The position numbers and the translations under genes were made by a program. Source: Candidatus Omnitrophota bacterium (GTDB taxonomy: Bacteria; Omnitrophota; Gorgyraeia; Gygaellales; Profunditerraquicolaceae). Taken from it: a stretch of 49,952 nucleotides of DNA. The notes under the pieces were generated by a model, which saw only the letters and a list, made by a program, of their open reading frames with translations, searched no databases and was not told where the DNA came from. Positions 4,788 through 41,559 of the stretch are shown here, piece by piece. The DNA is taken from positions 1 through 49,952 of the forward strand of contig JBAZIT010000001.1 of assembly GCA_041651675.1 (NCBI GenBank), written 5' to 3'. Each line of letters opens with the position of its first letter. Positions within the stretch are counted from its first letter, which is position 1.

Positions 4788-5453
4788 TTATAATCTTTCC
4801 GGATGGTGCCTGACCACCTGCGCCTTGACCATATAAATAATGTCTTCGGCGATATTGGTGGCATGATCGCAGATGCGTTCCAAAAAACGGGCGATCAGCA
4901 AGAGCTGCACTGCCCGCGGGCTGGTCGAGCCGTCCTTAACCATATATTCTTCTACCAGTTCTTTCTGGATGGAATTCCTTAACTTATCCGCTTCAGGGTC
5001 AGAGAGCAAAACTTTGGTTGCCAGTTCTATATCGCCTTTTATAAAAGCGTCTATCGCTGTTTTTACCATATCCTGGGCTATGGCGGTTAATTGCGGTATG
5101 TCGACCAGGGGCTTTAAAAGCGGCTGATCGGCGAGCTCAAGCGCGCGCTGGGCTATATCCACGGCTATGTCGGCGATCCTCTCCAGCTCATTATTCAGCT
5201 TCATCCCGGTAGCTATGAAACGCAGGTCTTTAGCCATCGGCTGGTGCCGGGCGATAAGGTCCAGGCACTTCTCATCTATAGAGAGCTCAAGCTCATCGAT
5301 CTTCTTATCATTCTCAATTACGCTCTTAGCCATATCCTTATCGCGGCCCTTTAACGCCTCGATGGACTTATAAATAGCCTCCTGCGCAAAAGTACCTATC
5401 CTTAGAATATCGTTATTCAGGTCTTTCAGTTCTGCGTCAAAATGCCTTTCCAT
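4788..5453 (-). CDS. phoU: phosphate signalling complex protein PhoU
   Basis: Two PhoU repeats are present. I place the start at MERHFDAELK (ATG 5451-5453), which has GGAG upstream. The longer tracked ORF would overlap pstB. Confidence 0.9.
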   Translation of the reverse strand: MERHFDAELKDLNNDILRIGTFAQEAIYKSIEALKGRDKDMAKSVIENDKKIDELELSIDEKCLDLIARHQPMAKDLRFIATGMKLNNELERIADIAVDIAQRALELADQPLLKPLVDIPQLTAIAQDMVKTAIDAFIKGDIELATKVLLSDPEADKLRNSIQKELVEEYMVKDGSTSPRAVQLLLIARFLERICDHATNIAEDIIYMVKAQVVRHHPERL

Positions 5454-5466
5454 ATTATCTCCTTTT

Positions 5467-6228
5467 TTATCCGAACCTGCCGGTAATATATGCCTCGGTG
5501 CGTTTATCCTTAGGCGCGGTAAAGATTTCCTGGGTTTTCCCGAATTCAATCAGTTCGCCCAGGAGGAAAAAACCCGTGTAATCCGCTACCCGCGCTGCCT
5601 GCTGCATATTATGGGTAACGATAATAATGGTATAATCCTTTTTCAGCTCAAGGATAAGTTCCTCGATCTTAGCCGTTGAGATCGGGTCAAGGCTGGCGCA
5701 GGGCTCGTCAAAAAGGATCACTTCGGATTCAACGGCCAGGCAGCGGGCTATGCATAATCTCTGTTGTTGTCCACCGGACAACTTAAGCGCGCTGTCATGC
5801 AACCTCCCCTCAACTTCTTCCCAGAGCGCTGCCCTCTTTAAAGATTGCACTACCCTTGCTTCAATAAAATCCCTGTCTTTTATACCGTTTACCTTCAGGC
5901 CATAGCTGATATTGTCAAAAATACTCTTAGGAAAAGGATTAGGTTTTTGAAAAACCATCCCCACCCGCCTTCTAATGCTTACCGGATCAACCGCAGGCCC
6001 GTTTATATCCAGGTCATCCAGGTAAACAGCGCCATTAAGCGCGGTGTGCATAACCAGCTCATTCATCCGGTTAAACAACCTTATAAAGGTTGATTTTCCG
6101 CAGCCGGACGGCCCGATCAAAGCAGTAACCTGATTGGCGTAAATATCTATACTTACGTTCTTCAGGGCCTGATGCTTGCCGTAAAAGAAACTTATGTCCT
6201 GCGCTTTCATTTTTATATTTTTATCCAT
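5467..6228 (-). CDS. pstB: phosphate ABC transporter ATP-binding protein PstB
   Basis: Walker [10 protein letters not shown], signature LSGGQQQR and Walker B ILFDEP. The start is taken at MDKNIK, which overlaps the pstA stop by 8 nt. Confidence 0.95.
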
Positions 6229-7069
6229 ATTGTTGCCTCTGCCTTTGCCTGATGAATATCGCAATTGCCGTTATGAACAAAACAATGAATAATAAAACCA
6301 GGCTGCAGCCGTAAGCTATAGCCCTCTGCTGCTCCGGATGCACACCCTCCGTCATCAACGCGTAAATATGGTATGGTAAAGCCATTACTTCTGAAAACAC
6401 TGAACGGGGAAAACCGCGCATATAAAATGCCGCGCAGGTAAAAAGAATAGGCGCGGTCTCTCCGGCAACCCTGCCGATACTAAGGATTATCCCGGTCAGG
6501 ATCCCGGGCAAAGCAGCAGGCAGAACGATCCTCTTAATCGTTTCCCATTTAGTCGCGCCTAACGATAAAGATGCCTCTCTAATGGATTGGGGAACAGCCA
6601 TAAGCGCCTCCTGGGCAGAAGAAATAATTAAAGGGAGCGCCAGGATCCCCAGGGTCAGGCTTCCGGCAAGGATAGATACGCCCAGGCCAAGCAGCTTCAC
6701 GAAAACAGCCAGGCCGAAAAGCCCGAAGACAACCGAAGGGACTCCGGCTAAATTATTGATGCTCATCCGTATAATATTGACGATAAAGCCTTTCGGCGAA
6801 TACTCACAGAGGTATATCGCGCAAGCCAGGCCTAACGGCAGGGCAAAAATTATCGCTCCCAGGGTAATATAGAATGTCCCGACAATCGCCGGGGCAATCC
6901 CTCCCTGGGTCATCCCGGAACGAGGTACCTGAGTAAGGAATTCCCAGGAGATAACCTGAGACCCCCTTACGGCAATAAAAAAAATGATCGACCCCAGGGC
7001 AAACAAAGTAAAGAGCATGCACAGGAATAACCCGCTAAACCCTAAATTCTGGATATATTTCCTTTTCAT
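6221..7069 (-). CDS. pstA: phosphate ABC transporter permease PstA
   Basis: 282 aa permease with an EAA-like loop. ATGA overlap with pstC. Confidence 0.9.
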
Positions 7070-7950
7070 CCGCTTAAGCCCAGTTTTAGGCGGAAGCGCC
7101 GGCTGACCAGCTCCGCAATGATATTAAATAAGAAAGTGACCAAAAAAAGGACCAGGGCTATGCCAAACAAGGCGTGATAATGCGCCCCTCCCATCGGCGC
7201 TTCTCCCATCTCCGCGGCGATTGCCGCAGTCATCGGCCGCACCGGCTCTAAAAAAGTATGCGGGATTACTGCCGCGCCGCCGGCAACCATCAATACAGTC
7301 ATTGTCTCGCCGATTGCCCGGCTCATCCCCAGTATGATTGCCGTGGAAATTCCTGAACCGGCAGCCGGGATTACTACCCGCGTCAAAGTTTGCCATCTAT
7401 CCGCGCCTAAGGCAAAAGAAGCTTCGCGGAAGGCCTTAGGGACATAATTTAAAGCATCCTCCGCTATACTGCATACCGTAGGTATGGCCATAACCCCCAA
7501 GATCAGGCTGGCATTTAAAGCAGTCAAGCCCGTAGGCAGATGGAATAATTCCTGTAAAAACGGCGTAACAATAACCATGCCGAAAAAACCAAAGACTACC
7601 GATGGTATGCTCGCCAGCAGTTCGATCAAGGGCTTAAGGATATCTTTCTGCCTGGGCCCGGCTAATTCATTCAGGTATAAAGCGCTCCCCACCCCTAGAG
7701 GCACGCAGACCATAACTGCGCCAAGAGTAACCCAGGCCGAAGCCAGTATCAGGGGAAGAATTCCGAACTCCGGCGGCTCATAGGTCGGATACCAGAACTT
7801 ACCGAACAGGAAGTCCAGTACCTGCACCTTTTTAAAAATAGGCAGCGCTTCCCTGAACAGGATAATAATAATGCCTACAAGGGAGACTAATGATGCAAAT
7901 GCCAAAACCGTAAATACCCACTTATATATTTTTTCCCTGCTCTTTGCCAT
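7066..7950 (-). CDS. pstC: phosphate ABC transporter permease PstC
   Basis: 294 aa permease. Gene order is pstS-C-A-B-phoU. Confidence 0.9.
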   Translation of the reverse strand: MAKSREKIYKWVFTVLAFASLVSLVGIIIILFREALPIFKKVQVLDFLFGKFWYPTYEPPEFGILPLILASAWVTLGAVMVCVPLGVGSALYLNELAGPRQKDILKPLIELLASIPSVVFGFFGMVIVTPFLQELFHLPTGLTALNASLILGVMAIPTVCSIAEDALNYVPKAFREASFALGADRWQTLTRVVIPAAGSGISTAIILGMSRAIGETMTVLMVAGGAAVIPHTFLEPVRPMTAAIAAEMGEAPMGGAHYHALFGIALVLFLVTFLFNIIAELVSRRFRLKLGLSG

Positions 7951-7970
7951 ATTATTTATAAAAAAGGAGG

Positions 7971-7997
7971 GCGCGGCAAAGGGATACTTTGCCGCGC
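7971..7997 (-). terminator. intercistronic stem-loop between pstS and pstC (partial terminator or mRNA stabiliser)
   Basis: 11-bp perfect stem GCGCGGCAAAG/CTTTGCCGCGC with a 5-nt loop. In mRNA sense it is followed by CCUCC and then UUUUUU. Confidence 0.5.
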
Positions 7998-8025
7998 TTG
8001 CCTTAAACGAGTAAACGCTATTTAA

Positions 8026-8862
8026 CTATTTTAAGGCCACGAACCCCTGTTCGTCGACGATCTTCTGCCCTTCTTTACTCTTGACAAACTCAATAAAATC
8101 CCTGGTGGCGTTAACCGGCGCACCGTTGGTGTACATATAAAGCGGCCGGGATACCGGGTATTTATCAGCAAGCACGGTTTCTTTGGTCGGCCTTACCCCT
8201 TCTACATCCAGGGCTTTTACTTCCTGATTAATATATCCTAACCCGACATAGCCGATCGCGCCCGGAGTGCGGCTGACTATGGAGCTGACTGCCTGGTTGG
8301 ATGCCTGCATCAGAGCGTCCGGCCTGACCTTTTGCCCTCCAAGTACAAGGACCGAAAATGCCTCAAAGGTACCGCTGGAAGTATCGCGGGAAACTACAAC
8401 GATCTTCTCGTCCTTGCCTCCGAGCTGCTTCCAGTTGGAAACATTACCCGTGTATATATCCGCCAGCTGTTTCTTTTTTAAACCGGCTACGGGATTAGCC
8501 GGATTCACGATCAAGGCGATCCCATCCATAGCAACAACGTGGGCTTTTGGGCTGACGCCGCCGGTAGCAGCTTTGTCCAATTCGCTGTCTTTAATTACCC
8601 GGGAGGAATCCGCGATATCGCAGGTCTTATCTATCAGAGAAGCTATTCCTACGCCAGAACCGCCCCCGCGCACGACAACTTCTACATCCGGATTCTGGCG
8701 CATGAAAAATTCCGCGGATACCTGGGCAATCGGCAGGACAGTAGTTGAACCCTCAATAATGATCTTACTCTTATCCTCTCCGTAAGGCCCGCCGGCATAA
8801 CCGGTCAAAGCGCACCCAAAGATTAAACCCGCTGTTAGTACGGCTTGCAATATATTTTTCAT
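8026..8862 (-). CDS. pstS: phosphate-binding protein PstS (probable lipoprotein)
   Basis: 278 aa. It has a signal peptide with LIFGC, a GSTTV motif and a SRDTSSGT phosphate-binding motif. Confidence 0.9.
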   Translation of the reverse strand: MKNILQAVLTAGLIFGCALTGYAGGPYGEDKSKIIIEGSTTVLPIAQVSAEFFMRQNPDVEVVVRGGGSGVGIASLIDKTCDIADSSRVIKDSELDKAATGGVSPKAHVVAMDGIALIVNPANPVAGLKKKQLADIYTGNVSNWKQLGGKDEKIVVVSRDTSSGTFEAFSVLVLGGQKVRPDALMQASNQAVSSIVSRTPGAIGYVGLGYINQEVKALDVEGVRPTKETVLADKYPVSRPLYMYTNGAPVNATRDFIEFVKSKEGQKIVDEQGFVALK

Positions 8863-8893
8863 TTTCTTCTCCTTGTTTTCAAAATATATACTA

Positions 8894-10189
8894 TTACCAT
8901 TTCAGGTTCCAGTCAACCTGTAATACCTGCTGCGGGACAAAGCTTCCAGAAGTCCCCGCAGACGCAGACCTGGAGAGCGCTTCTGCCCAATAATAGTCTA
9001 TAACCAGGCTGGAATTCTTGCCTAACCCGTATTCAAGAACTGCCTCAACGCTCTTCATATTGGTTTTGCCGTTATAGCGGTCAGAATCCGGCAGGATATC
9101 CAGCCAGGCATCTCTTCCGAGCTTAGCAAAGAGGATCTTTGCCTGCCACTGTTTCCAGCCGCCGACTTTTTCCGAACCAAACTTGACCCCGGCATCAAAA
9201 CCGCTTTTGCCCGTGTCAGGATCAGGGTTATAAATAAAATCCCCGAATATACCCAGATAGGGGATATATTTACCAAGCACAGGCACTCCGGCAAACGGAT
9301 CCTTGATCCCCATTTCAGCGCTGGGGTTAAAAGAATTATAGTTATATTTATAGTTACCGCTGGTTGATGTCGCGCCGGTTGTAGAGTTGGTCCCGCTGCT
9401 ATTAGTGAACCTGGGCCTGTCTTTTAAACCGGTGAAAAAATATCCGGCAACCGCGCCCTTAAAGTTTATCTTGTCCTGCCAGTTATACCTTATTCCTGGC
9501 TGAACCACGAACATTGTGCGGCCGGAATTACTCTCGCTATCTTGAGTTAAAGCGAAGACCTCCCCGTTCAAGAATAACCCCAGGTAAGGATTCAGATTGT
9601 AGTCTAACTGCGCGCTTACGCCTTCCGGATTCAGGTCGCCATCCCACAATAAATCGTTTGGCTGCCAGATAGGATTCTTGAATTTACCTCCGGTAAAGGT
9701 CAGCCAGGTAGTCGGCGAATACGAACCATAAGCGTAATCCAGAATAATGGATTTAAATGAGGCAGGGCCGTTAGAATCGGCAATCGTAGCGTTGGTGGAA
9801 CGCGGGTTAGAGGTTGAACCGGTTGCCATACCTATTCCCACTTTCATCTGGTCGTTGATCTTTGTATCCAGGCCTAAACGCACCCTGATCTGGCCCTTGC
9901 TGTCGTCTTTTATGCCTTTTTGTTTGGTATAAGCATACCTCAAGCGGAAATCACCTTTCATCTTAACCTTCTGAAGCCATTCGGGAAGCAGGTCATATTT
10001 AGCCTGGGATATCTCCTTACGGATCTCTTCTTTGGTCTCCGCCTTGACCTGCTGAGCTTCGCCCGCAGTCAAAACTCCTTTTTCGACCAATTTTTGCAAT
10101 AACAAATCTATTTCGCCGGCAAAAGAACTGCCGACTAAACATAGAACCGTAAATCCTGACGCCGCCAGCACTGCTAAAAACTTCTTCAT
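8894..10189 (-). CDS. outer-membrane beta-barrel porin, phosphate-linked by context
   Basis: 431 aa. It has a signal peptide, an N-terminal helical plug (LLQKLVEKGVLTAGEAQQV), alternating beta-strand pattern and a C-terminal aromatic residue (NLKW). It lies 31 nt upstream of pstS. Confidence 0.65.
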   Translation of the reverse strand: MKKFLAVLAASGFTVLCLVGSSFAGEIDLLLQKLVEKGVLTAGEAQQVKAETKEEIRKEISQAKYDLLPEWLQKVKMKGDFRLRYAYTKQKGIKDDSKGQIRVRLGLDTKINDQMKVGIGMATGSTSNPRSTNATIADSNGPASFKSIILDYAYGSYSPTTWLTFTGGKFKNPIWQPNDLLWDGDLNPEGVSAQLDYNLNPYLGLFLNGEVFALTQDSESNSGRTMFVVQPGIRYNWQDKINFKGAVAGYFFTGLKDRPRFTNSSGTNSTTGATSTSGNYKYNYNSFNPSAEMGIKDPFAGVPVLGKYIPYLGIFGDFIYNPDPDTGKSGFDAGVKFGSEKVGGWKQWQAKILFAKLGRDAWLDILPDSDRYNGKTNMKSVEAVLEYGLGKNSSLVIDYYWAEALSRSASAGTSGSFVPQQVLQVDWNLKW

Positions 10190-10202
10190 TTTCTTCCTCC
10201 CT

Positions 10203-10220
10203 GCCTGCCGGTAGGCAGGC
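10203..10220 (-). other. GC-rich hairpin just upstream of the porin SD
   Basis: GCCTGCC-4 nt-GGCAGGC stem-loop with no U-tract. In mRNA sense it is followed by AGGGAGGAAGAAAATG. Confidence 0.4.
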
Positions 10221-10233
10221 TTTAACTAGGTTG

Positions 10234-10425
10234 CTAGTTATTGTTTAAACATGATTTCCTAATGGTACGTAAAGTCATTTCTATCTGCCTCAGAGATTCA
10301 TCTGCATAGCCAGAATCAATTTGTCCTTCTTCCTCTATACTCTCAAGGACATTGCGCAGCCGGCTAAGCTGGGAACGCAGATGGCTGGCTAGAAAATCAC
10401 GGCGAATTGGAGACATGGCTTGCAT
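10234..10425 (-). CDS. hypothetical small helical protein (63 aa)
   Basis: The tracked ORF starts at a TTG. An internal ATG (10423-10425) is preceded by a strong AAAGGAGGTG SD. I recognise no family. Confidence 0.5.
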   Translation of the reverse strand: MQAMSPIRRDFLASHLRSQLSRLRNVLESIEEEGQIDSGYADESLRQIEMTLRTIRKSCLNNN

Positions 10426-10426
10426 C

Positions 10427-10564
10427 TTAATCTTCACCTCCTTTAGCTGGTCCGGCGCCAAGAATACGCCTGTTCAGCTCGTTGACTCTTGCTGATTCCT
10501 GGTCGATAATTTTATCCAGAACTTCTTTCGGTAGATCGGTCATCATTTTTAATATGCGCTTCAT
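10427..10564 (-). CDS. small ORF A (45 aa), candidate leader or small protein
   Basis: MKRILKMMTDLPKEVLDKIIDQESARVNELNRRILGAGPAKGGED. The TAA stop lies 1 nt before the next ATG. It is paralogous to small ORF B. It falls below the ORF-track length cut-off, so I translated it by hand. Confidence 0.4.
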   Translation of the reverse strand: MKRILKMMTDLPKEVLDKIIDQESARVNELNRRILGAGPAKGGED

Positions 10565-10579
10565 TTTTACTTTACCTGG

Positions 10580-10634
10580 ATTATAAAACACCGGGGTTAA
10601 ATCCGCTTCAAGCGAAAGTAAAATCTAAGTAAAA
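10580..10634 (-). promoter_or_regulatory. Pho-box-like direct-repeat array plus -10 (module A)
   Basis: Minus-sense TTTTACT(10634-10628), TTTTACT(10623-10617), CTTGAAG(10612-10606) and TTTAACC(10601-10595), all in 11-bp register, followed by TATAAT at 10585-10580. Confidence 0.45.
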
Positions 10635-10636
10635 TA

Positions 10637-11041
10637 TCATTTCTGTTTAACTGTAAATTCCTTATCCCGCAGCGCCCTGATTTCCCTGACGGCATCCAGT
10701 AATATATTGACGCTAAACGGCTTGGCGAAATAACAATCCGCGCCCATAATATGCGCGTAGAGTTTATCCTGAAGAGTATGCTTTGCGCTTACCACGATGA
10801 CGAACGTCCCCGAAGGATTATTTTCGCTCTTTATCTCCCGGCAGATATCAAAGCCGTTGATACCCGGAAGCATTATGTCAACTATCGCTATATCAAAATA
10901 TTCCTTTTTCAATCTTTCGACTGCGCCGCAACCGTCAAAAACCTGCTCCACCAGGAAACCTTCCTTACGCAAGTTATACGCAATGAGCGTGCTGATATCC
11001 TTATCATCTTCCACTATAATAATCTTAGCCTGGTTTTTCAT
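10637..11041 (-). CDS. stand-alone response-regulator receiver domain protein (CheY-like, PhoB-receiver paralogue)
   Basis: 134 aa. It has the acidic pocket EDD, phosphoacceptor D in IVDIMLPG, SAK and the conserved K in AKPF. There is no output domain. Confidence 0.9.
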   Translation of the reverse strand: MKNQAKIIIVEDDKDISTLIAYNLRKEGFLVEQVFDGCGAVERLKKEYFDIAIVDIMLPGINGFDICREIKSENNPSGTFVIVVSAKHTLQDKLYAHIMGADCYFAKPFSVNILLDAVREIRALRDKEFTVKQK

Positions 11042-11044
11042 CTG

Positions 11045-11152
11045 TTAGGCGTATTGTTGATAGAAATAATCCATTTCAATTATTTCATCGTCAATAATTT
11101 TCTTAATGTAGCGGGTCATCTTTAACCATATTTTTCGGATTTTTCTTTTCAT
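11045..11152 (-). CDS. small ORF B (35 aa), candidate leader or small protein
   Basis: MKRKIRKIWLKMTRYIKKIIDDEIIEMDYFYQQYA. The TAA stop is 3 nt before the receiver ATG, which has no SD of its own. Translated by hand. Confidence 0.35.
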   Translation of the reverse strand: MKRKIRKIWLKMTRYIKKIIDDEIIEMDYFYQQYA

Positions 11153-11158
11153 GGCTAA

Positions 11159-11213
11159 AGTATAAAGGAAGGCTGTTAAGCGCGCTTCAAGGGTAAGTAA
11201 AATGCAGGTAAAG
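11159..11213 (-). promoter_or_regulatory. Pho-box-like direct-repeat array plus -10 (module B)
   Basis: Minus-sense CTTTACC, TTTTACT, CTTGAAG and CTTAACA in 11-bp register, then TATACT at 11164-11159, 6 nt from ATG 11152. Spacing is the same as in module A. Confidence 0.45.
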
Positions 11214-11236
11214 TTTTTGGGGGTTAAAACGGGACT

Positions 11237-13012
11237 CTATTTAGCGAGGGTAAACCAGAATTTTGAACCGATGCCTTCGGTGCTTTCTACTCCGACGGAT
11301 CCGCCGTGCAGTTCTACGATATGCTTGACGATAGACAGGCCCAGGCCGGTCCCCCCGAGTTCGCGCGAGCGCGCTTTATCCACCCGGTAGAACCGTTCAA
11401 AAATACGCGGTATATCTTTGGCAGGAATGCCGATACCGGAATCTTCCACGCTGATCTTTATTTTACCGCCTGTCTCTTCGGCATAAATCCTGACCGAGCC
11501 TTTTTCCTTATTGAATTTTACGGCGTTATCCAGGAGATTAGTAAATACCTGTCTTATCCTGCCCTTATCCGCTTTCAGGCGGATATCCGGGGAAAGCTCA
11601 TTTTCTATCGCAATGCCCTTCTTTTTTGCCAGGGAGCTGAACCAGGCGATGATCTCGTCCAATTCATGAGCCGGGCTGATCTCTTCCTTCGCCAGGACCA
11701 TCTCTTTTGACTCCAAGCCCGATAATGCAAGCAGGTCATTGACTAAACTATCCAGCCGTTCTGCGTGGCCCTGGATTATCTTCAGGAAACTGCGGTTATT
11801 TTCCTTGTCCTCAAGGGCGCCCTCAAGGAGTGTCTCCACAAAACCTTTTATGGAAGTAAGCGGCGTCTTCAGCTCGTGGGATACATTAGCCACAAAATCG
11901 CGGCGGATATTTTCCAGCCTCCTTACCTCGCTTATATCATGGATGACCAAAAGGCATCCGTTTATCCGGTCTTTTTCAAATAAGGGCGAGGCATTGACCT
12001 GGAATACCTTCTGCACCGGATAGACCAGCGCAAGCTCGCTGGAAAAAAATCTTTTTTCCTCCAGGACTACCCGGATGATCTCCGCCATATCGGTATTGCG
12101 GATGACCTCCAAAAACGGCCTGCCTTTAGCCTTGCGGCTGGCAATACTGAAAATCTCTTCGATGGCCTGGTTAACTGAAACTATACCTCCGGATTTATCC
12201 GTAACGATTATACCTTCAACCATGTTCTGGAAAATAGTCTTAAGCTGCTGGTTTTGTGCTTCTATTTCCTTAATCTTGTTTTCCATATCCTGGGCCATCC
12301 TGTTCAACGTGGAAGCCAGCTCGCCGATCTCATCGCGTGAATCATAATATACCCTCTGGCTGAAATCGCCTTCCGCAAACCTGCGCGAGGCATTGATGAT
12401 TTTATTCAGGGGCCTGGTTATACTGGTTATCAAGACATAGGCTAAAATAAGCGCTAAGCACAACGCCAAAAAGATATTCAGTACAATTGTTTTACGGATA
12501 GCAGACATCATGCTCTGGACATTGCCTACCGGTAAAGCTAACCGGATTATCCCGGCTATTCCCTCCTTAGCCCTGATCGGCAAAGCCACATACAACATGT
12601 CTATTTTGAGGGTCGCCGAATAGCGTATATTATCGCCGGTTAACCCCATTAAAGCTGTTTTTACTTCCGGGCGGCTAGCGTGGTTCTCTATATTTATAAC
12701 TTCACCCCGGGATAAACCTGAATCAGCCAAAACTCTGCCCTGATTATCAATAATGGTAATCCGGGAATCATTCCTTAGGCTTAAGCCTTTAACCAGGGCT
12801 TCTAAATTGGCTGTATTTTCTTTTTTCAAGCTTTCCGGCGGGATCTGGTTTTCAATAAGCCGGGCCTGGGTGATAATTGAATTCTTCAAGTCTTGCAGCG
12901 AGTGATTTTCCAGCTGTTTATCCAGGAAAAATGCGGTAAATCCGAATGCGATAAGGATTATCGCTACATAAGAAAAAAGCAGCCGGTATTTAAAACTCTT
13001 ATAGAACTGCAC
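11237..13012 (-). CDS. phoR: phosphate-regulon-type sensor histidine kinase (PhoR-like)
   Basis: 591 aa with two TM segments, HAMP, PAS, H-box SHELKTPL, and N/G1/G2 ATPase boxes. The start is GTG, overlapping the phoB TAG by 1 nt. Confidence 0.85.
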   Translation of the reverse strand: MQFYKSFKYRLLFSYVAIILIAFGFTAFFLDKQLENHSLQDLKNSIITQARLIENQIPPESLKKENTANLEALVKGLSLRNDSRITIIDNQGRVLADSGLSRGEVINIENHASRPEVKTALMGLTGDNIRYSATLKIDMLYVALPIRAKEGIAGIIRLALPVGNVQSMMSAIRKTIVLNIFLALCLALILAYVLITSITRPLNKIINASRRFAEGDFSQRVYYDSRDEIGELASTLNRMAQDMENKIKEIEAQNQQLKTIFQNMVEGIIVTDKSGGIVSVNQAIEEIFSIASRKAKGRPFLEVIRNTDMAEIIRVVLEEKRFFSSELALVYPVQKVFQVNASPLFEKDRINGCLLVIHDISEVRRLENIRRDFVANVSHELKTPLTSIKGFVETLLEGALEDKENNRSFLKIIQGHAERLDSLVNDLLALSGLESKEMVLAKEEISPAHELDEIIAWFSSLAKKKGIAIENELSPDIRLKADKGRIRQVFTNLLDNAVKFNKEKGSVRIYAEETGGKIKISVEDSGIGIPAKDIPRIFERFYRVDKARSRELGGTGLGLSIVKHIVELHGGSVGVESTEGIGSKFWFTLAK

Positions 13013-13707
13013 TAATCTTCCTCCCGGTCAAAACGATAACCGTAATTTTTAACGGTGATGATACGCCTGGCCTCGCCTTTTAATTTCTTGCGCAAAGTCC
13101 GGATGTGCACGTCTACGGTGCGCGTCTGGATCTCTATAGCGTGGTCAAAACCCCAGATATTGTCCAGGAGATAATCCCTGGAAAGGACCCTGCCTTTTGC
13201 CCCGATCAGGGTTTTCAACAGTTCAAACTCTTTCGCGGTAAGTTCAACGGGTTTATTTTTGACGCTGACGCTGATCTTGGCAAAATCTATAGCTAAGCCG
13301 CCTATTTTCAATAATTCCGGCAGCTTATCCTTCTCTTTCATCCGCCGCAGCACTGCCTTAATCCTGGCGATGAGTTCGCGGGGGCTAAAAGGCTTAGTCA
13401 CATAATCATCAGCTCCTAATTCCAGCCCGATAATTTTATCCGTTTCCTGCGCTTTGGCAGTGAGCATAATAACGGGGATGTGCGCGGTTTTTCTCTCGGC
13501 CTTGAGCGCCTTACAAACGTCCAAACCGTTCAGGCCGGGAAGCATAAGGTCAAGAACAATAAGTTCGGGCTGGTGCCTGACTGCCGCATCCAGGGCATCA
13601 TCTCCGTCATTAACGGAAAAAGGAGTAAACCCTTCTTTCTTCAGGTTATACTCCAGCATCTTCACTATGTCTTTTTCGTCTTCTACGATCAGGATTTTAT
13701 CCATCAT
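13012..13707 (-). CDS. phoB: OmpR/PhoB-family response regulator
   Basis: 231 aa. Receiver domain plus a winged-helix output domain (LTAKEFELL...GYRF). It is adjacent to phoR. Confidence 0.9.
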   Translation of the reverse strand: MMDKILIVEDEKDIVKMLEYNLKKEGFTPFSVNDGDDALDAAVRHQPELIVLDLMLPGLNGLDVCKALKAERKTAHIPVIMLTAKAQETDKIIGLELGADDYVTKPFSPRELIARIKAVLRRMKEKDKLPELLKIGGLAIDFAKISVSVKNKPVELTAKEFELLKTLIGAKGRVLSRDYLLDNIWGFDHAIEIQTRTVDVHIRTLRKKLKGEARRIITVKNYGYRFDREED

Positions 13708-13722
13708 CCATTCTCCTGCCGC

Positions 13723-14652
13723 TCAATTATATCCGCGAGCTGACTGGTTCTGATAGTAATTATAGGCTGATAAGGCAATATCCGAAATAAGTTTTTTTGC
13801 GCTGCCGGCAGTCTTGCTTTTATGCCTGACCAGGACACAGATCAGGAAATCTCCCTTACGGGTATAAACTATGCCTACATCATGGCAGATCCGCCTCTCT
13901 AAACCGGTCTTGTGCGCGATGAATGCCCCGTCTTTAGGGAGTTTTTTAGGGATGCGGTCATTGATCTTCTGTTCGCCGAGCAGGATTAGGCACTGTTCGG
14001 ATACTTCTTTATTCAAAAAATCTTTATGGTAAAGCTTTTCCAATAAAAAAGCCATGTCTCGGGCGGTCGTATAATTTTCCTGGCCCCTTCTCCTTTTACT
14101 GAAATCCATCATCTTACGCACTAGATTAGTATCTTTTAACCCCATCTTCTTAAAATACGCATTTAACGTATCAAAACCTAAATAGCTGATCAGGAGGTTA
14201 GTGGCGGAATTATCGCTCTGGGTGATCATAGGACTCAGCAGATCTTCCACCTGAAAGCGGCTCCCGGCAGGAAAATTCCCCAATACCTTTGAACCGGCTA
14301 CCTTATCGCTGCCCTTAAGGGCCAGAACATCTTTAAAGCTTATCCTGCCTTCTTGAGCGGCGTAGAAATAAGATAACATAATGGGGATCTTGACTAAACT
14401 TGCCGCGGGAAGCGCAACTTCTTCGTTCTGGGTTATCTCCCAGCCCGTATCCAAGTCTTTAACCACTATACTCACGGTCCCTGGAAAATGCAGGGCCTTA
14501 GCCTTAAGTTTTTTCTCTAGGGCTAACCAGGCTGCTTTTCTTTTGGCTAATATTTTCCCTGCCTGATAGCTCTTGTATGCCTCATATGAAAAAAATATAC
14601 CCGCGCTGAAAAAACAAAAAGCAATTATTAAAAGTATTATCTTCCTTCTCAT
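13723..14652 (-). CDS. class A beta-lactamase-like serine hydrolase, membrane anchored
   Basis: 309 aa. SLVK (SxxK), SDN and KTG motifs occur in the correct order. There is an N-terminal TM segment. Confidence 0.75.
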   Translation of the reverse strand: MRRKIILLIIAFCFFSAGIFFSYEAYKSYQAGKILAKRKAAWLALEKKLKAKALHFPGTVSIVVKDLDTGWEITQNEEVALPAASLVKIPIMLSYFYAAQEGRISFKDVLALKGSDKVAGSKVLGNFPAGSRFQVEDLLSPMITQSDNSATNLLISYLGFDTLNAYFKKMGLKDTNLVRKMMDFSKRRRGQENYTTARDMAFLLEKLYHKDFLNKEVSEQCLILLGEQKINDRIPKKLPKDGAFIAHKTGLERRICHDVGIVYTRKGDFLICVLVRHKSKTAGSAKKLISDIALSAYNYYQNQSARGYN

Positions 14653-15392
14653 GGCTGCGGCTGGGCCATGAGTTCACTGATCGTCACAAACCTGTAGCCT
14701 TTTTCTTCTAATTTTTTGACTAAGCGAGGGATAGTTTTGATTGTTTGGGTGCGATTTCCTCCCTCGGCGGTAAAGACCCCTCCGCTGTCATGGAAAAGAA
14801 TAATATCCCCGGGTTGGATGCGTTTTAAAATATAGGAAGTGATCTGCTTGTCATGATAAGTTACCCAGTCTTTGGAATTTAACGACCATAGAACAATCTT
14901 ATACCCCATCTCCTCAATCTTTTTCTTTTCCCTGGAGGAAAGCCAGGCCTTGGGAGGCCGGAAATACCGGGTATTCTGGCCGGTCACGGTTTTAATCGCC
15001 TTTTCCGCATCCTTAATTTCTTTTTCCAGTTCTTCCATCTTATAATAGATCAGGACATGGTGGTCATAGGTATGGTTTCCTATCTCATGGCCTTCGGCTA
15101 AAACCTGCCTGGCGATCTCCGGGTATCTTTCTACGTGGTTGCCCAGCATAAAGAAAGTCGCCTTGACCTGCGCTTTTTTGAGTTCATCCAATACCTGCGG
15201 GGTCCACTCCGGGCTGGGCCCGTCATCAAAGGTGAGGGCCACGACCTTATCCGCACGCTTGGCGCGGTAAAAAGTCCCTTTACGCACGAAGACTGCCTCA
15301 TCAAAAAATAAAGAGAGGATAAAAAAACACACAGCTAAGATAATCAGGACAACAATTATTAAAACTACTTTCTTAAAGATTTTTTTTACCAT
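14649..15392 (-). CDS. polysaccharide deacetylase (NodB homology domain)
   Basis: 247 aa with TFDDGP, HEIGNHTYDH and RPP motifs. There is an N-terminal TM anchor. Confidence 0.85.
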   Translation of the reverse strand: MVKKIFKKVVLIIVVLIILAVCFFILSLFFDEAVFVRKGTFYRAKRADKVVALTFDDGPSPEWTPQVLDELKKAQVKATFFMLGNHVERYPEIARQVLAEGHEIGNHTYDHHVLIYYKMEELEKEIKDAEKAIKTVTGQNTRYFRPPKAWLSSREKKKIEEMGYKIVLWSLNSKDWVTYHDKQITSYILKRIQPGDIILFHDSGGVFTAEGGNRTQTIKTIPRLVKKLEEKGYRFVTISELMAQPQP

Positions 15393-15396
15393 AATT

Positions 15397-17127
15397 CTAC
15401 CTTAATATTATCAAATTAAGCGCTCCGCCCATAATAATGCTGACAGCGATCATGATCAGGGTTGCTTTGAGCACATCCCAGACCCCTAATTCTTTCCAGA
15501 GGACGATGAAAGTAGCTATACAGGGAAAAGAAACCGCCAATAACGTTACCGCGATAAACAATTGCTTGACAGAAAGCCCCAGGGGCGTCAGCATGCCGGC
15601 AGCGACATCCTTTCTTAAAAAACCGATGGCCAGGGCAGCTACCGCTTCTTTAGGCAATCCGAACAGGCCGGTAACCAACGGCGCAAATATGCCGGTTACA
15701 AAATCAAACAACCTGAAATATAAAAGAATGTTGATTACTAAAACACCGGCCAGAACAACCGGCACTGCCTCGATCAAGAAGCCCTTAATGCGGAAAAAAA
15801 GCTTTTTGGCGAGTATATTCAACGGTGGAAACCTGTAAGGAGGGATTTCTAATAGAAATTCCGGGCTATATCCAGATAAGGAACGGTTCAGGATCATCCC
15901 TAATATCAAGATCAGAGAAAATAAAACCAGGTAAACTCCGGCCACATAGAATCCTCCGAATGTGCCCAACAGGCCGAAGATCATTGCCTGCAAAGGCACG
16001 CAGGGCACGCCTATGGAAATCAGCGTTGAAGCGATAAACCTTTCGCGCTTGGATTCCAGGACCCGCGTAGCTAAAATGCCCGGGACATTACACCCCAGAC
16101 CCAGAAGTACCGGGATTATCGCATAACCATGCAGCCCTAACCGGTGTAAGAGATTGTCTAATAATATGGCCAGGCGCGGTAAATACCCTATGTCTTCCAG
16201 CAGGCTGAGGACAAAATAAAAGGATATAACATAAGGCAGAACCATCCCGAATTCAATGTAAGGAGCCGTAGTTAAAAGGCCCAGAGACTGTTTAAAATCG
16301 ATCTTTCCGTTGATCAAATCGCCGATCAGCAAATGAAACCAAAAACCGTTCTCCTGCCAATGCGAAGTTAATTTTTCCAGGAGCGGCTGGAAAAAATTAA
16401 AGAACAACGGATCAGTTAGCTTGGTAATTATCCCCTCTCCGATAAAGCGCACAAATTTAAATGCGGCATAGATTACCCCTGCCGCCATGATCAAGCCGCT
16501 AACCGGGCGCACCGACACATCCTCTAAAATCTCCCTCAAGCTATGGTGCCGGTGTTCCAGGCGCTGCGCCTGCTCAATGATCCGGCCGATCTCTTTCCAG
16601 CGCTCTTCATGAGTAAGGACGCCTCTTGAAACAGGCACTGCTTCTTTTATTCTTTCGATCAATAATTTGATCCCTGAGCCGGTAATCGCACAGGTTGGAA
16701 TAACTGGAATATGCAAGAATTCTTCTAATTTAGAAATGTCTATATGCACTCCCTTATGCCCGGCCTCGTCGCACATATTTAAGCAGGCGATCACCGGAAA
16801 ACCTCCCTCGATCAGTTGTAAGGTAAGTAGCAGGTTTCTTTCCAGGTTGGTTGAATCCAGGATGTTGATTACGACAATCTCATCTTTAGCGTATTCTTTC
16901 AGCAGAGAGACTGCCACTTCCTCCGCGGAAGAGGTCGGTTCTAACGAATAGGTCCCCGGAAGGTCCACCACCTCTATCTTCTCCCGGCCTGTCTGCAAAT
17001 ACCCTTTGCTGATCTCTACGGTGGTTCCCGGATAATTTGAAGAAATAACCTGGACTCCGGTGAGGCGCGAAAATACCACGCTCTTGCCTACATTCGGATT
17101 TCCAATGAGATAAATCTTTTTTATCAT
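15397..17127 (-). CDS. feoB: ferrous iron transporter FeoB
   Basis: 576 aa. N-terminal G-domain GNPNVGKS...DLPG followed by a polytopic membrane domain. Confidence 0.9.
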   Translation of the reverse strand: MIKKIYLIGNPNVGKSVVFSRLTGVQVISSNYPGTTVEISKGYLQTGREKIEVVDLPGTYSLEPTSSAEEVAVSLLKEYAKDEIVVINILDSTNLERNLLLTLQLIEGGFPVIACLNMCDEAGHKGVHIDISKLEEFLHIPVIPTCAITGSGIKLLIERIKEAVPVSRGVLTHEERWKEIGRIIEQAQRLEHRHHSLREILEDVSVRPVSGLIMAAGVIYAAFKFVRFIGEGIITKLTDPLFFNFFQPLLEKLTSHWQENGFWFHLLIGDLINGKIDFKQSLGLLTTAPYIEFGMVLPYVISFYFVLSLLEDIGYLPRLAILLDNLLHRLGLHGYAIIPVLLGLGCNVPGILATRVLESKRERFIASTLISIGVPCVPLQAMIFGLLGTFGGFYVAGVYLVLFSLILILGMILNRSLSGYSPEFLLEIPPYRFPPLNILAKKLFFRIKGFLIEAVPVVLAGVLVINILLYFRLFDFVTGIFAPLVTGLFGLPKEAVAALAIGFLRKDVAAGMLTPLGLSVKQLFIAVTLLAVSFPCIATFIVLWKELGVWDVLKATLIMIAVSIIMGGALNLIILR

Positions 17128-41088: not shown

Positions 41089-41559
41089 TTATGGTGTGCA
41101 GCTTTGCAGCTTGGTGCCATCTGCGCAAATACAATAATAGCAGGTGTTGCCAGGCAGTTTTTGGGCTAAGGATGTGCGTACGCCATAATTTTGGCATATC
41201 TGACCGCCCACGGCATTGTAATGCGTGTAGAGCCACGCTGAATTGGTTAGGTTATTAATGCTTACAATAGTATCACCATCAACAGCCGCTGCAATTGGCC
41301 AAATGTTATCTGCAGGGTAAACGCCGTGAATTGCATAATAAGATAGTAGTGCCCTCCGCATGGCATCCAGGTTAGCATACACTTGTGATTTTTGGGCTTT
41401 AGCTACATTAGCAAAATAGCGGGGTATAGCGACCAGGGCGAGGATACCGATAATTACTACGACAATGATAAGCTCAATTAAAGTAAAACCATGATCCCTG
41501 CCTGCCGGCAGGCAGTTTTTTTGTGATAGACTTTTTTTAAAAGGCGCGCTCATTAACAT
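41089..41559 (-). CDS. prepilin-type N-terminal cleavage/methylation domain protein (pilin or pseudopilin)
   Basis: 156 aa. G|FTLIELIIVVVIIGILALVAIP with Glu at +5. It has an unusually long 24-aa leader and a Cys-rich C-terminus. Confidence 0.8.
   Translation of the reverse strand: MLMSAPFKKSLSQKNCLPAGRDHGFTLIELIIVVVIIGILALVAIPRYFANVAKAQKSQVYANLDAMRRALLSYYAIHGVYPADNIWPIAAAVDGDTIVSINNLTNSAWLYTHYNAVGGQICQNYGVRTSLAQKLPGNTCYYCICADGTKLQSCTP

What the first reader, a model, noticed from the sequence alone, without database searches (positions are those of the whole stretch)
10427..11213. Two paralogous modules of Pho-box-like repeats, promoter and small ORF downstream of phoBR
Seen in sequence: the ~55 nt upstream of small ORF A (10580-10634) and of small ORF B (11159-11213) align without gaps.
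- Module A: ATTTTACTT-TCG-CTTGAAGCG-GA-TTTAAC-...-TTTATAAT.
- Module B: ATTTTACTT-ACC-CTTGAAGCG-CG-CTTAAC-...-TTTATACT.
- Each contains four 7-mers in strict 11-bp register: (T/C)TTTAC(T/C), TTTTACT, CTTGAAG, (T/C)TTAAC. The last 7-mer ends 9 nt before the -10.
- The two small ORFs are also paralogous. Both start MKR, and both have K18-I-I-D-x-E23 at identical positions.
- Each ORF stops 1-3 nt before the next start codon. The receiver gene after ORF B has no SD of its own.

Established knowledge: OmpR/PhoB-family regulators bind direct repeats with 11-bp periodicity placed about 10 bp upstream of the -10. The B. subtilis PhoP consensus is TT(A/T/C)ACA.

Inference: these are PhoB-dependent promoters. 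Module A is probably the real promoter of the small-protein, porin and pstSCAB-phoU array. Module B would drive a receiver-only PhoB paralogue. The conserved coupled small ORFs may be leader peptides or small regulatory proteins. I do not recognise them as a described family.
Basis: partly seen in the sequence, partly recalled or inferred. Interest (0 to 1): 0.6.

Follow-up and report, generated by a model that had tools for sequence, protein, structure and literature searches.

The report
Pho-box promoters with conserved small proteins
Two copies of a phosphate-starvation ("Pho box") promoter in an uncultured Omnitrophota bacterium each lead into a tiny but real protein-coding gene, part of an undescribed accessory gene set between the phosphate sensor genes and the phosphate-uptake operon.

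Summary
**Observation:** confirmed. Both modules, the 11-bp register, the -10 elements, the two small ORFs and the 1- and 3-nt gaps are as described.

**What the modules are:** activator-dependent promoters of the PHO-box type.
- The 38-nt core occurs in 91 of 201 sampled genomes of the family, with almost no control matches.
- There are one to three copies per genome, always in the phosphate locus: after phoR, or before porin, pstS or DUF2490 genes.
- A TATACT -10 lies a fixed 10 nt downstream of the core.

**Small ORFs:**
- ORF B (35 aa) is under purifying selection and occurs in several Omnitrophota families.
- ORF A belongs to a paralogous family (profile-profile probability 96%).
- In most genomes the -10 lies 6 nt from ORF B's ATG, so its mRNA is probably leaderless.
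- Tight coupling to the receiver gene holds only in this genus and a few relatives.

a conserved 63-aa gene after ORF A. It is predicted to form a helical hairpin. It has a short, specific resemblance to the His-box helix of PhoR, but no conserved histidine.

**Limits:** the functions of the small proteins are inferred, not shown. No RNA data could be used. The scan has already noted Pho boxes and the 63-aa family on other Omnitrophota DNA.

The parts
11175..11213 (-). Module B Pho box: four hexamers (CTTTAC, TTTTAC, CTTGAA, CTTAAC) spaced 11 bp apart
   Evidence: Read directly. Matches the family-wide pattern.
11159..11164 (-). Module B -10 hexamer TATACT, 10 nt after the box and 6 nt before the ATG. 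The predicted transcription start is the A of the ATG at 11152.
   Evidence: The 10-nt spacing holds in 42 of 43 modules and the 6-nt spacing in 25 of 43. The transcription start is inferred.
11045..11152 (-). Small ORF B (sB): 35 aa, probably the first cistron of a leaderless mRNA
   Evidence: Alignment A1 of 27 genomes. Within the genus pN/pS is about 0.1-0.15; in the other two frames it is about 1. Found in 36 of 401 sampled Omnitrophota genomes.
10637..11041 (-). Receiver-only response regulator, 134 aa. No SD; its ATG lies 3 nt after the sB stop.
   Evidence: Pfam Response_reg 5.5e-23, with no output domain. 39% identical to the PhoB receiver, with the acceptor Asp, Ser and Lys conserved.
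10596..10634 (-). Module A Pho box: TTTTAC, TTTTAC, CTTGAA, TTTAAC spaced 11 bp apart. It overlaps the receiver gene's stop codon.
   Evidence: A second module about 580 bp after the first recurs in many genera.
10580..10585 (-). Module A -10 hexamer TATAAT. The predicted transcription start is near 10573, giving a leader of about 9 nt with no SD.
   Evidence: The transcription start is inferred.
10427..10564 (-). Small ORF A (sA): 45 aa, a paralogue of sB
   Evidence: Alignment A4. hhalign of sA against sB gives probability 95.8%, E 7e-9. pN 0.33 against pS about 1.
10234..10425 (-). o63: a conserved 63-aa helical-hairpin protein. Its own SD (AAGGAGGTGA) lies inside the 3' end of sA.
   Evidence: Homologues are only Omnitrophota hypothetical proteins. 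264 clusters at 50% identity. pLDDT 83, helices 6-33 and 38-60. pN/pS 0.1-0.3. Resembles the PhoR His-box helix.
10200..10221 (-). GC-rich palindrome (GCCTGCCTACCGGCAGGCAGG) running into the porin SD. It has no U tract.
   Evidence: About 14 related palindromes in the genome. 96-100% identical copies across the family.
11237..13707 (-). phoB (13707-13012) and phoR (13012-11237), the presumed cognate regulator pair
   Evidence: Pfam and NCBIfam. PhoB scores 260 bits on TIGR02154, below the 296-bit cut-off.
4788..10189 (-). Downstream target genes: porin (Porin_5), pstS, pstC, pstA, pstB, phoU
   Evidence: Pfam.

Best explanation
Both modules are PHO-box promoters of the activator-dependent kind. 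Phosphorylated PhoB, encoded just upstream, would bind as two tandem dimers to four 11-bp-phased TT(T/G/A)A(C/A) units. These units replace the -35 element, and PhoB would recruit RNA polymerase to a TATACT or TATAAT -10 lying 10 nt downstream.

- **Module B** starts a transcript at or next to the ATG of sB, so the mRNA is leaderless. sB is a real, conserved 35-aa protein. In this genus, ribosomes that finish sB re-initiate 3 nt later on the SD-less gene for a receiver-only PhoB paralogue.
- **Module A** starts a second transcript for sA (a paralogue of sB), the 63-aa hairpin protein o63, the porin and pstSCAB-phoU.

The set sB, receiver, sA and o63 is a conserved accessory cassette of the phosphate two-component system in one class of Omnitrophota.

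The most likely role of the cassette is starvation-induced feedback on PhoR-to-PhoB signalling. The receiver would compete for PhoR's phosphoryl groups, and the small helical proteins would act as partners or modulators.

**Shown here:** the sequence anatomy, conservation, purifying selection and restriction to the phosphate locus.

**Inferred:** PhoB binding, the transcription start sites, re-initiation, and every functional role of the small proteins.
For: **Promoter**
- Geometry read directly from the sequence.
- The motif occurs in 91 of 201 family genomes, with near-zero control matches, in one to three copies per genome.
- All copies lie in the phosphate locus: after phoR, and before sB/receiver, sA/o63/porin, pstS, Porin_5 or DUF2490.
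- The box-to-(-10) spacing is fixed at 10 nt in 42 of 43 modules.
- The sigma-70 scan finds no promoter with a -35 at either module.
- The same promoter is followed either by an ATG 6 nt after the -10, or by a leader of about 20 nt with GGAGG. This places the transcription start just after the -10.
- Lineages with a different adjacent OmpR-type regulator (recognition helix NIDVHIRHLREK instead of RTVDVHIRTLRKK) have GTTCACA boxes in place of TTTAC boxes.
- The PHO-box definition is taken from PMC4415409.

**Small proteins**
- sB: alignment. Third codon positions vary most, and pN/pS is 0.1-0.15 within the genus against about 1 in the other frames.
- sA and sB are homologous by profile comparison.
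- o63 is under purifying selection and has 264 clusters.
- Natural sA-o63 fusions exist.
- The receiver keeps all its phospho-acceptor residues. Its alpha1 helix is much closer to PhoB's than the 39% overall identity.
Against: - No transcript, footprint or expression data exist.
- PhoB scores below NCBIfam's PhoB equivalog cut-off (260 against 296 bits).
- A crude genome-wide count found no enrichment of -10 hexamers 6 nt from ATGs, so leaderless starts are not shown to be common in this organism.
- The module A segment with sA and o63 is missing from several species of the same genus, and sA is frameshifted in one. These genes are therefore dispensable.
- sB occurs without the receiver in some genomes, and the receiver occurs without sB in others. 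An obligate sB-receiver partnership is therefore unlikely.
- Read-through from phoBR is not excluded, because no terminator follows phoR or the receiver gene.
Confidence: 0.7

Rival explanations
1. sB and sA act in cis as leader peptides (upstream ORFs). Their translation, or a stall of the nascent peptide, would set how much of the downstream gene is translated. They would have no role as free proteins.
For: - They are the first cistron after a Pho box, in front of different genes: receiver, o63, porin, DUF2490.
- In this genus the receiver gene has no SD and starts 3 nt after the sB stop.
- The best-conserved part of sB is its last 17 residues (IIxEE...MDxFYxQYA-stop), and its length is almost fixed at 35 aa. 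This resembles known arrest peptides (my own knowledge of TnaC and SecM).
Against: - In most genera the gap to the next gene is 12-71 nt, varies in sequence, and carries an independent GGAGG.
- The conserved block of sA lies at no fixed distance from its stop codon.
- sA is fused in frame to o63 in several clusters, which points to a protein partner role.
- The N-terminal amphipathic half is also conserved in character.
Confidence: 0.2
2. The boxes are bound by an OmpR-family regulator other than the adjacent PhoB, or they respond to a signal other than phosphate.
For: PhoB is below the NCBIfam equivalog threshold. The kinase has a Cache-HAMP-PAS architecture that it shares with WalK-type kinases.
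Against: - The boxes occur only next to this kinase-regulator pair and before pstS and porin genes.
- The box sequence changes together with the adjacent regulator's recognition helix.
- pstSCAB-phoU lies directly downstream.
Confidence: 0.07
3. The conserved 55 nt act as RNA, for example a structured leader in read-through transcripts, and not as a DNA operator.
For: No terminator follows phoR or the receiver gene, so the boxes are probably also transcribed. In module A a 16-nt stretch of the box is 81% complementary to the sA leader (pair I5).
Against: - No Rfam family matches.
- Conservation follows an 11-bp direct-repeat pattern with a fixed distance to a -10, not a stem pattern.
- The element sits upstream of varied leaders.
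- Inverted pairs of similar quality are common in this 1.1-kb region.
Confidence: 0.03

Closest known systems
PHO boxes of PhoB/PhoP regulators (E. coli CTGTCAT, S. coelicolor GTTCACC, B. subtilis TT(A/T/C)ACA x4)
   Same: - Direct repeat units of 11 nt, with a conserved core and a variable spacer.
- Two boxes (four units) in place of the -35, ending about 10 bp before the -10.
- The TTTAC units fit the B. subtilis consensus. The GTTCACA units of sister lineages fit the Streptomyces core.
   Different: - The third and fourth units (CTTGAA, TTTAAC) differ from the first two and are nearly invariant across genera.
- The regulon appears to be only one to three sites per genome.
- The first cistron is a small protein, often on a leaderless transcript.
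- Binding has not been tested.
Single-domain response regulators used as phosphate sinks or kinase modulators (S. meliloti CheY1, FixT; MrrA, PMC5964349; the CckA inhibitor in PMC9430884 - titles only seen)
   Same: A receiver-only protein encoded beside a kinase-regulator pair. It keeps all phospho-acceptor residues and is closest to the cognate regulator's receiver.
   Different: - Here it is placed under the pathway's own promoter.
- A 35-aa protein gene precedes it.
- No phosphotransfer data exist.
Small protein modulators of two-component systems (MgrB, SafA, PmrD, Sda, Spo0E; my own knowledge)
   Same: Very small proteins encoded within, or induced by, the regulon they would feed back on.
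   Different: - No sequence or family match.
- sB and sA have no transmembrane segment.
- o63 lacks the SQELD motif of Spo0E.
- No interaction has been shown.
DHp (HisKA) domain of histidine kinases, and DHp-like proteins such as Spo0B
   Same: - o63 is predicted to be a two-helix hairpin.
- The top Foldseek hits include the DHp domains of HK853 and M. tuberculosis PhoR.
- Its helix 1 shares IR(R/K)DF(L/V)A(S) and a matching hydrophobic spacing with the PhoR His-box helix.
- The match scores 25.9, against 10.9 +/- 2.5 for shuffled columns.
- Of nine proteins in the locus it matches only PhoR, and exactly at the His box.
   Different: - The histidine position is H, N, Y or Q.
- There is no Pfam HisKA hit.
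- With a broader alignment the match shrinks to 13 columns.
- The Foldseek E-values are not significant.
- There is no ATP-binding domain.

Membership tests
PHO box (PhoB/PhoP direct-repeat operator) | Two or more direct repeat units with 11-nt periodicity (conserved core plus variable spacer) | tested here: met
   Four units spaced exactly 11 bp apart in both modules. The family consensus shows the same period.
PHO box (PhoB/PhoP direct-repeat operator) | Replaces the -35 element and lies about 10 bp upstream of a -10 | tested here: met
   10 nt to TATACT or TATAAT in 42 of 43 modules. The sigma-70 scan, which requires a -35, does not call either module.
PHO box (PhoB/PhoP direct-repeat operator) | Located in front of phosphate-regulon genes | tested here: met
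   All strong matches in 201 genomes lie after phoR or before porin, pstS or DUF2490.
PHO box (PhoB/PhoP direct-repeat operator) | Bound by the phosphorylated regulator, with transcription induced by phosphate limitation | not testable with these tools
Leaderless mRNA | Transcript 5' end at, or within a few nt of, the start codon | not testable with these tools
   Only the geometry is known: the -10 ends 6 nt before the ATG in the window and in 25 of 43 modules, with no SD.
Single-domain (CheY-like) response regulator | Receiver domain with acidic pocket, acceptor Asp, Ser/Thr and Lys, and no output domain | tested here: met
   Response_reg covers residues 7-119 of 134. ED-D12-D13, D55, S85 and K105 align with the PhoB residues.
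HisKA / DHp domain (for o63) | Helical hairpin | tested here: met
   AlphaFold2 model: helices 6-33 and 38-60, mean pLDDT 83.
HisKA / DHp domain (for o63) | Significant sequence or profile match to HisKA | tested here: inconclusive
   hhalign probability 40-54%, E 1e-4 to 3e-4, z about 5-6 against shuffles. No Pfam HisKA hit.
HisKA / DHp domain (for o63) | Conserved phospho-accepting histidine | tested here: not met
   The position holds H 14, N 9, Y 5, Q 3 and others among the family representatives that matched the motif.
Ribosome-arrest or leader peptide (TnaC/SecM type) | Fixed functional linkage to the downstream gene's translation start | tested here: not met
   The gap from sB to the next gene ranges from an 8-10-nt overlap to 71 nt, and outside this genus group there is an independent GGAGG.
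PhoU domain (for o63 and sA-o63) | Profile match to PhoU | tested here: not met
   hhalign probability 0.05%. No Pfam PhoU hit on the natural fusion.

The most novel reading that the evidence does not exclude
The receiver-only protein and o63 together would be a stripped-down second two-component pair. It would derive from a phoB-phoR duplication in the same gene order, keeping only the receiver domain and a histidine-less DHp hairpin. sB and sA would be added as helical adaptors.

Induced by PhoB~P, this pair would form a self-contained feedback device. It would drain or reverse PhoR-to-PhoB phosphorylation, acting as a sink plus a DHp-type phosphatase or kinase blocker. This would set the gain and the shut-off of the phosphate response in these small genomes.
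Probability: 0.25. Interest if true: 0.65.

Novelty: new variant of a known kind. Interest (0 to 1): 0.45.

Why it matters
**What it provides**
- It gives the first usable operator and promoter model for an entirely uncultured phylum. The model is a near-invariant 55-nt element with a defined -10 and a predicted transcription start. It can be used to call phosphate regulons and to test leaderless initiation in Omnitrophota.
- It defines two undescribed small-protein families (sB/sA and o63) that gene callers often miss. They are conserved under selection beside a receiver-only regulator, inside the phosphate-sensing locus.

**If the proteins modulate PhoR-PhoB**
- They would be a new kind of built-in accessory to one of the best-studied bacterial signalling systems.

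**Limits on novelty**
- The promoter part is an ordinary member of a well-known class.
- The scan has already reported Pho boxes and the 63-aa family in other Omnitrophota genomes.

Tried and rejected
- **Third paralogous module on contig C35.** Rejected. C35 is syntenic with the window at about 80% identity and 100% identical to a sister species' contig, so it is co-binned DNA.
- **Stop-codon read-through fusing sB to the receiver.** The two are in frame here only because the gap is 3 nt. In other genera they are out of frame. Rejected.
- **o63 or sA-o63 as a PhoU-like unit.** No similarity.
- **sA or sB homologous to o63.** MAFFT suggested this. hhalign gives probability below 1%.
- **sA similar to the PhoR alpha2 helix.** Probability 3%, E 0.014, score within about 2 sd of shuffles. 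Not accepted.
- **sB and sA against all nine proteins of the locus.** No match.
- **Library searches.**
  - Pfam and NCBIfam found nothing for the small proteins.
  - PDB sequence search found only chance-level hits.
  - Rfam found nothing relevant.
  - Foldseek against PDB found only non-significant helical hairpins.
- **Genome-wide enrichment of -10 hexamers 6 nt before ATGs.** No clear peak, using crude first-ATG ORF starts.
- **Literature.** Nothing found on Omnitrophota Pho regulation or leaderless genes.
- **Second structure job.** Not used. Monomer output gives no contacts, and the fusion proteins came from a tool whose products may not be submitted.
Full report
**Anatomy**

All genes of the region lie on the minus strand. 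In order they are:
- phoB (13707-13012) and phoR (13012-11237)
- module B
- sB, 35 aa (11152-11045)
- a receiver-only response regulator, 134 aa (11041-10637)
- module A
- sA, 45 aa (10564-10427)
- a 63-aa ORF, here called o63 (10425-10234)
- a GC palindrome
- a Porin_5 porin (10189-8894), then pstS, pstC, pstA, pstB and phoU

Each module has four hexamers spaced exactly 11 bp apart.
- Module B reads CTTTAC, TTTTAC, CTTGAA, CTTAAC.
- Module A reads TTTTAC, TTTTAC, CTTGAA, TTTAAC.
- In both, a 10-nt gap separates the last hexamer from a -10 hexamer. This is TATACT at 11164-11159 in module B and TATAAT at 10585-10580 in module A.

The two modules form a 52-nt ungapped direct repeat of 73% identity.
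- both start MKR;
- both carry KIIDxE at residues 18-23;
- the gaps to the next start codon are 3 nt and 1 nt;
- the receiver gene has no SD.

**Organism and a caveat**

The window is from a Candidatus Omnitrophota metagenome-assembled genome of 1.41 Mb in 195 contigs, 76% complete.

A third copy of module B, sB and the receiver lies on contig C35. That contig matches window 16570-5263 at about 80% identity with full synteny. It is also 100% identical to a contig of another species of the genus. It is therefore co-binned DNA and not a paralogue.

C35 is still informative. It lacks the 440 bp that hold module A, sA and o63, and its receiver gene runs almost directly into the porin gene.

**The modules are a family-wide promoter**

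- The 38-nt core, allowing up to 3 mismatches, occurs in 91 of 201 sampled genomes of the family and in 37 of 98 genera. The reversed-pattern control gives about a dozen hits in total. Each genome has one to three copies.
- In 44 distinct loci a module follows phoR directly.
- A second module, about 580 bp further on, follows the receiver gene in many genera.
- In others a module directly precedes pstS, a Porin_5 gene or a DUF2490 outer-membrane gene.
- The spacing from the last repeat to a TATACT-like -10 is 10 nt in 42 of 43 modules.
- A standard sigma-70 scan, which needs a -35, does not call either module.

This matches the PHO-box definition: 11-nt direct repeat units with a conserved core, lying where the -35 would be (review PMC4415409).

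The same promoter is followed in most genomes by an ATG 6 nt after the -10. In others it is followed by a leader of about 20 nt with GGAGG. Both arrangements fit a transcription start about 7 nt after the -10. They argue that the conserved block acts as DNA and not as RNA. No Rfam family matches.

In other families of the same class, sB, the receiver and o63 follow a different OmpR-type regulator. Its recognition helix is NIDVHIRHLREK, against RTVDVHIRTLRKK here. The boxes there read GTTCACA, GTTCACA, CTTTAAG, TTGTAAC. So the box sequence changes together with the adjacent regulator. This is at most two independent observations, but it is consistent with the neighbouring regulator being the binder.

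**sB is a real protein**

Twenty-seven sB sequences from many genera align with almost no gaps. The consensus is MxxKI...(K/R)xIIxEExxxMDxFYxQYA, and the length is almost always 35 aa.

| Measure | Result |
|---|---|
| Mean pairwise difference, codon positions 1 / 2 / 3 | 0.39 / 0.41 / 0.58 |
| Within genus, window against relatives: pN | 0.09-0.14 |
| Within genus, window against relatives: pS | 0.68-0.93 |
| pN/pS in the two other frames | about 1 |

A profile search finds sB in 36 of 401 sampled Omnitrophota genomes, all in the window's class.

In the window the -10 ends 6 nt before the ATG and there is no SD. The same holds in 25 of 43 modules. The mRNA is therefore probably leaderless. 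A crude genome-wide count showed no general enrichment of this geometry.

**Coupling is lineage-specific**

The arrangement stop, 3 nt, ATG without an SD is found in this genus and two neighbouring genera. Elsewhere the gap is 12-71 nt with a good GGAGG. Two genomes lack sB altogether, and there the receiver gene itself starts at the leaderless ATG.

sB also occurs without the receiver, followed by o63 or a porin. This weakens both a pure leader-peptide reading and an obligate sB-receiver pairing.

**sA**

sA-like peptides have the consensus MxK(I/L)L...(F/L)(D/N)(K/R)IIDxEAKRVNEFN and occur in several genera.
- A profile-profile comparison of sA with sB gives probability 95.8% and E 7e-9.
- Selection is weaker than on sB: pN 0.33 against saturated pS.
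- Within the genus, sA is frameshifted in one species, and the whole module A segment is absent in three.

- It has its own strong SD (AAGGAGGTGA) inside the 3' end of sA.
- Its only named homologues are Omnitrophota hypothetical proteins.
- It has 264 clusters at 50% identity, nearly all 60-65 aa.
- Its pN/pS is 0.1-0.3.
- Several clusters are in-frame sA-o63 fusions of 105-120 aa. Others carry an N-terminal membrane anchor.
- AlphaFold2 predicts a helical hairpin with helices at 6-33 and 38-60 and mean pLDDT 83.
- Foldseek finds no significant match. Among the top hairpins are CsoR and the DHp domains of HK853 and M. tuberculosis PhoR.

The start of o63, IR(R/K)DF(L/V)AS(H/N)LRSQL, resembles the His-box helix of the family's own PhoR, RRDFVANVSHELKTPL.
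- hhalign gives probability 54% and E 1.3e-4. The score is 25.9, against 10.9 +/- 2.5 for column shuffles. The observed score was reached in 0 of 200 and 1 of 200 shuffles.
- Of nine proteins in the locus, o63 matches only PhoR, and exactly at residues 367-397.
- With a broader o63 alignment the match shrinks to 13 columns, with probability 40% and z about 5.
- The histidine position is variable: H, N, Y or Q.
- Pfam HisKA does not hit.

I treat a DHp origin as a lead with roughly 40% probability, not as a family assignment.

**The receiver**

It is 39% identical to the PhoB receiver. It has the acidic pocket, D55, S85 and K105. Its alpha1 helix matches PhoB's at about 10 of 15 positions. That region is known to carry kinase-partner specificity (my own knowledge). 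Phosphorylation by PhoR is therefore plausible but untested.

**Mechanism, with status**

| Step | Status |
|---|---|
| Conserved PHO-box-type promoters confined to the phosphate locus | Shown |
| Small genes under purifying selection | Shown |
| sA and sB are paralogous | Shown |
| PhoB~P binds four units as two tandem dimers and substitutes for the -35 | Inferred |
| Transcription of sB starts at its ATG | Inferred |
| In this genus the receiver is translated by re-initiation after sB | Inferred |
| Module A adds a second inducible start for sA, o63, porin and pst | Inferred |
| The receiver competes with PhoB for PhoR, while o63, sA and sB bind the receiver, PhoR or each other to tune the response | Inferred, weakest |

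**Comparison and novelty**

- The promoter is a new member of the PHO-box class. It is closest in repeat sequence and four-unit layout to B. subtilis PhoP boxes. The sister-lineage variant is closest to the Streptomyces GTTCACC core.
- The accessory cassette has no described counterpart that I could find.
- Earlier notes of this scan already describe Pho boxes and a 63-65-aa leading ORF in other Omnitrophota genomes. They also describe the leaderless geometry in this window.
- New here are the sB/sA family, its link to the receiver-only regulator, the sA-o63 fusions, and the resemblance of o63 to the PhoR His-box helix.

Noticed in passing
G000 contig C35 (whole contig, 10.9 kb), compared with window 5263-16570: C35 is a syntenic copy of the phosphate locus at about 80% identity. 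It is 100% identical to a contig of another species representative of the genus. The bin therefore holds DNA of two related organisms.
   Followed up: yes
window 10200-10221 and 41496-41515; about 14 sites genome-wide: The palindromes CCTGCCTGCCGGCAGGCAGG and its variants recur in the genome. Copies 96-100% identical occur at several sites in many genomes of the family, often just before an SD. They look like a REP-like element or a 5' stabiliser hairpin.
   Followed up: partly
L094, L096-L101, L105, L108, L110 (other Omnitrophota genomes): A second type of locus exists, with the order kinase, regulator, box, sB, receiver, o63. It has GTTCACA-type boxes and a different OmpR-family recognition helix. 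One genome (G041) appears to carry both types.
   Followed up: partly
P0066, P0099, P0132, P0156 (o63-family representatives): Some o63-family proteins carry an N-terminal transmembrane helix. Others (P0016, P0020, P0022, P0155) are sA-o63 fusions.
   Followed up: partly
L057, L062, L073, L078 (other genera): DUF2490 outer-membrane proteins are direct Pho-box targets in several genera. This gives that uncharacterised family a candidate role in phosphate uptake.
   Followed up: partly
L010 (G145), region homologous to window 10427-10564: In the closest relative that still has module A, the sA reading frame is broken after about 14 codons, while o63 is intact.
   Followed up: no
window 10565-10580 and 10608-10623: In module A, 16 nt of the Pho box are 81% complementary to the short sA leader. 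In read-through transcripts this pairing could mask the sA start. Inverted pairs of similar quality are common in this region, so it may be chance.
   Followed up: no
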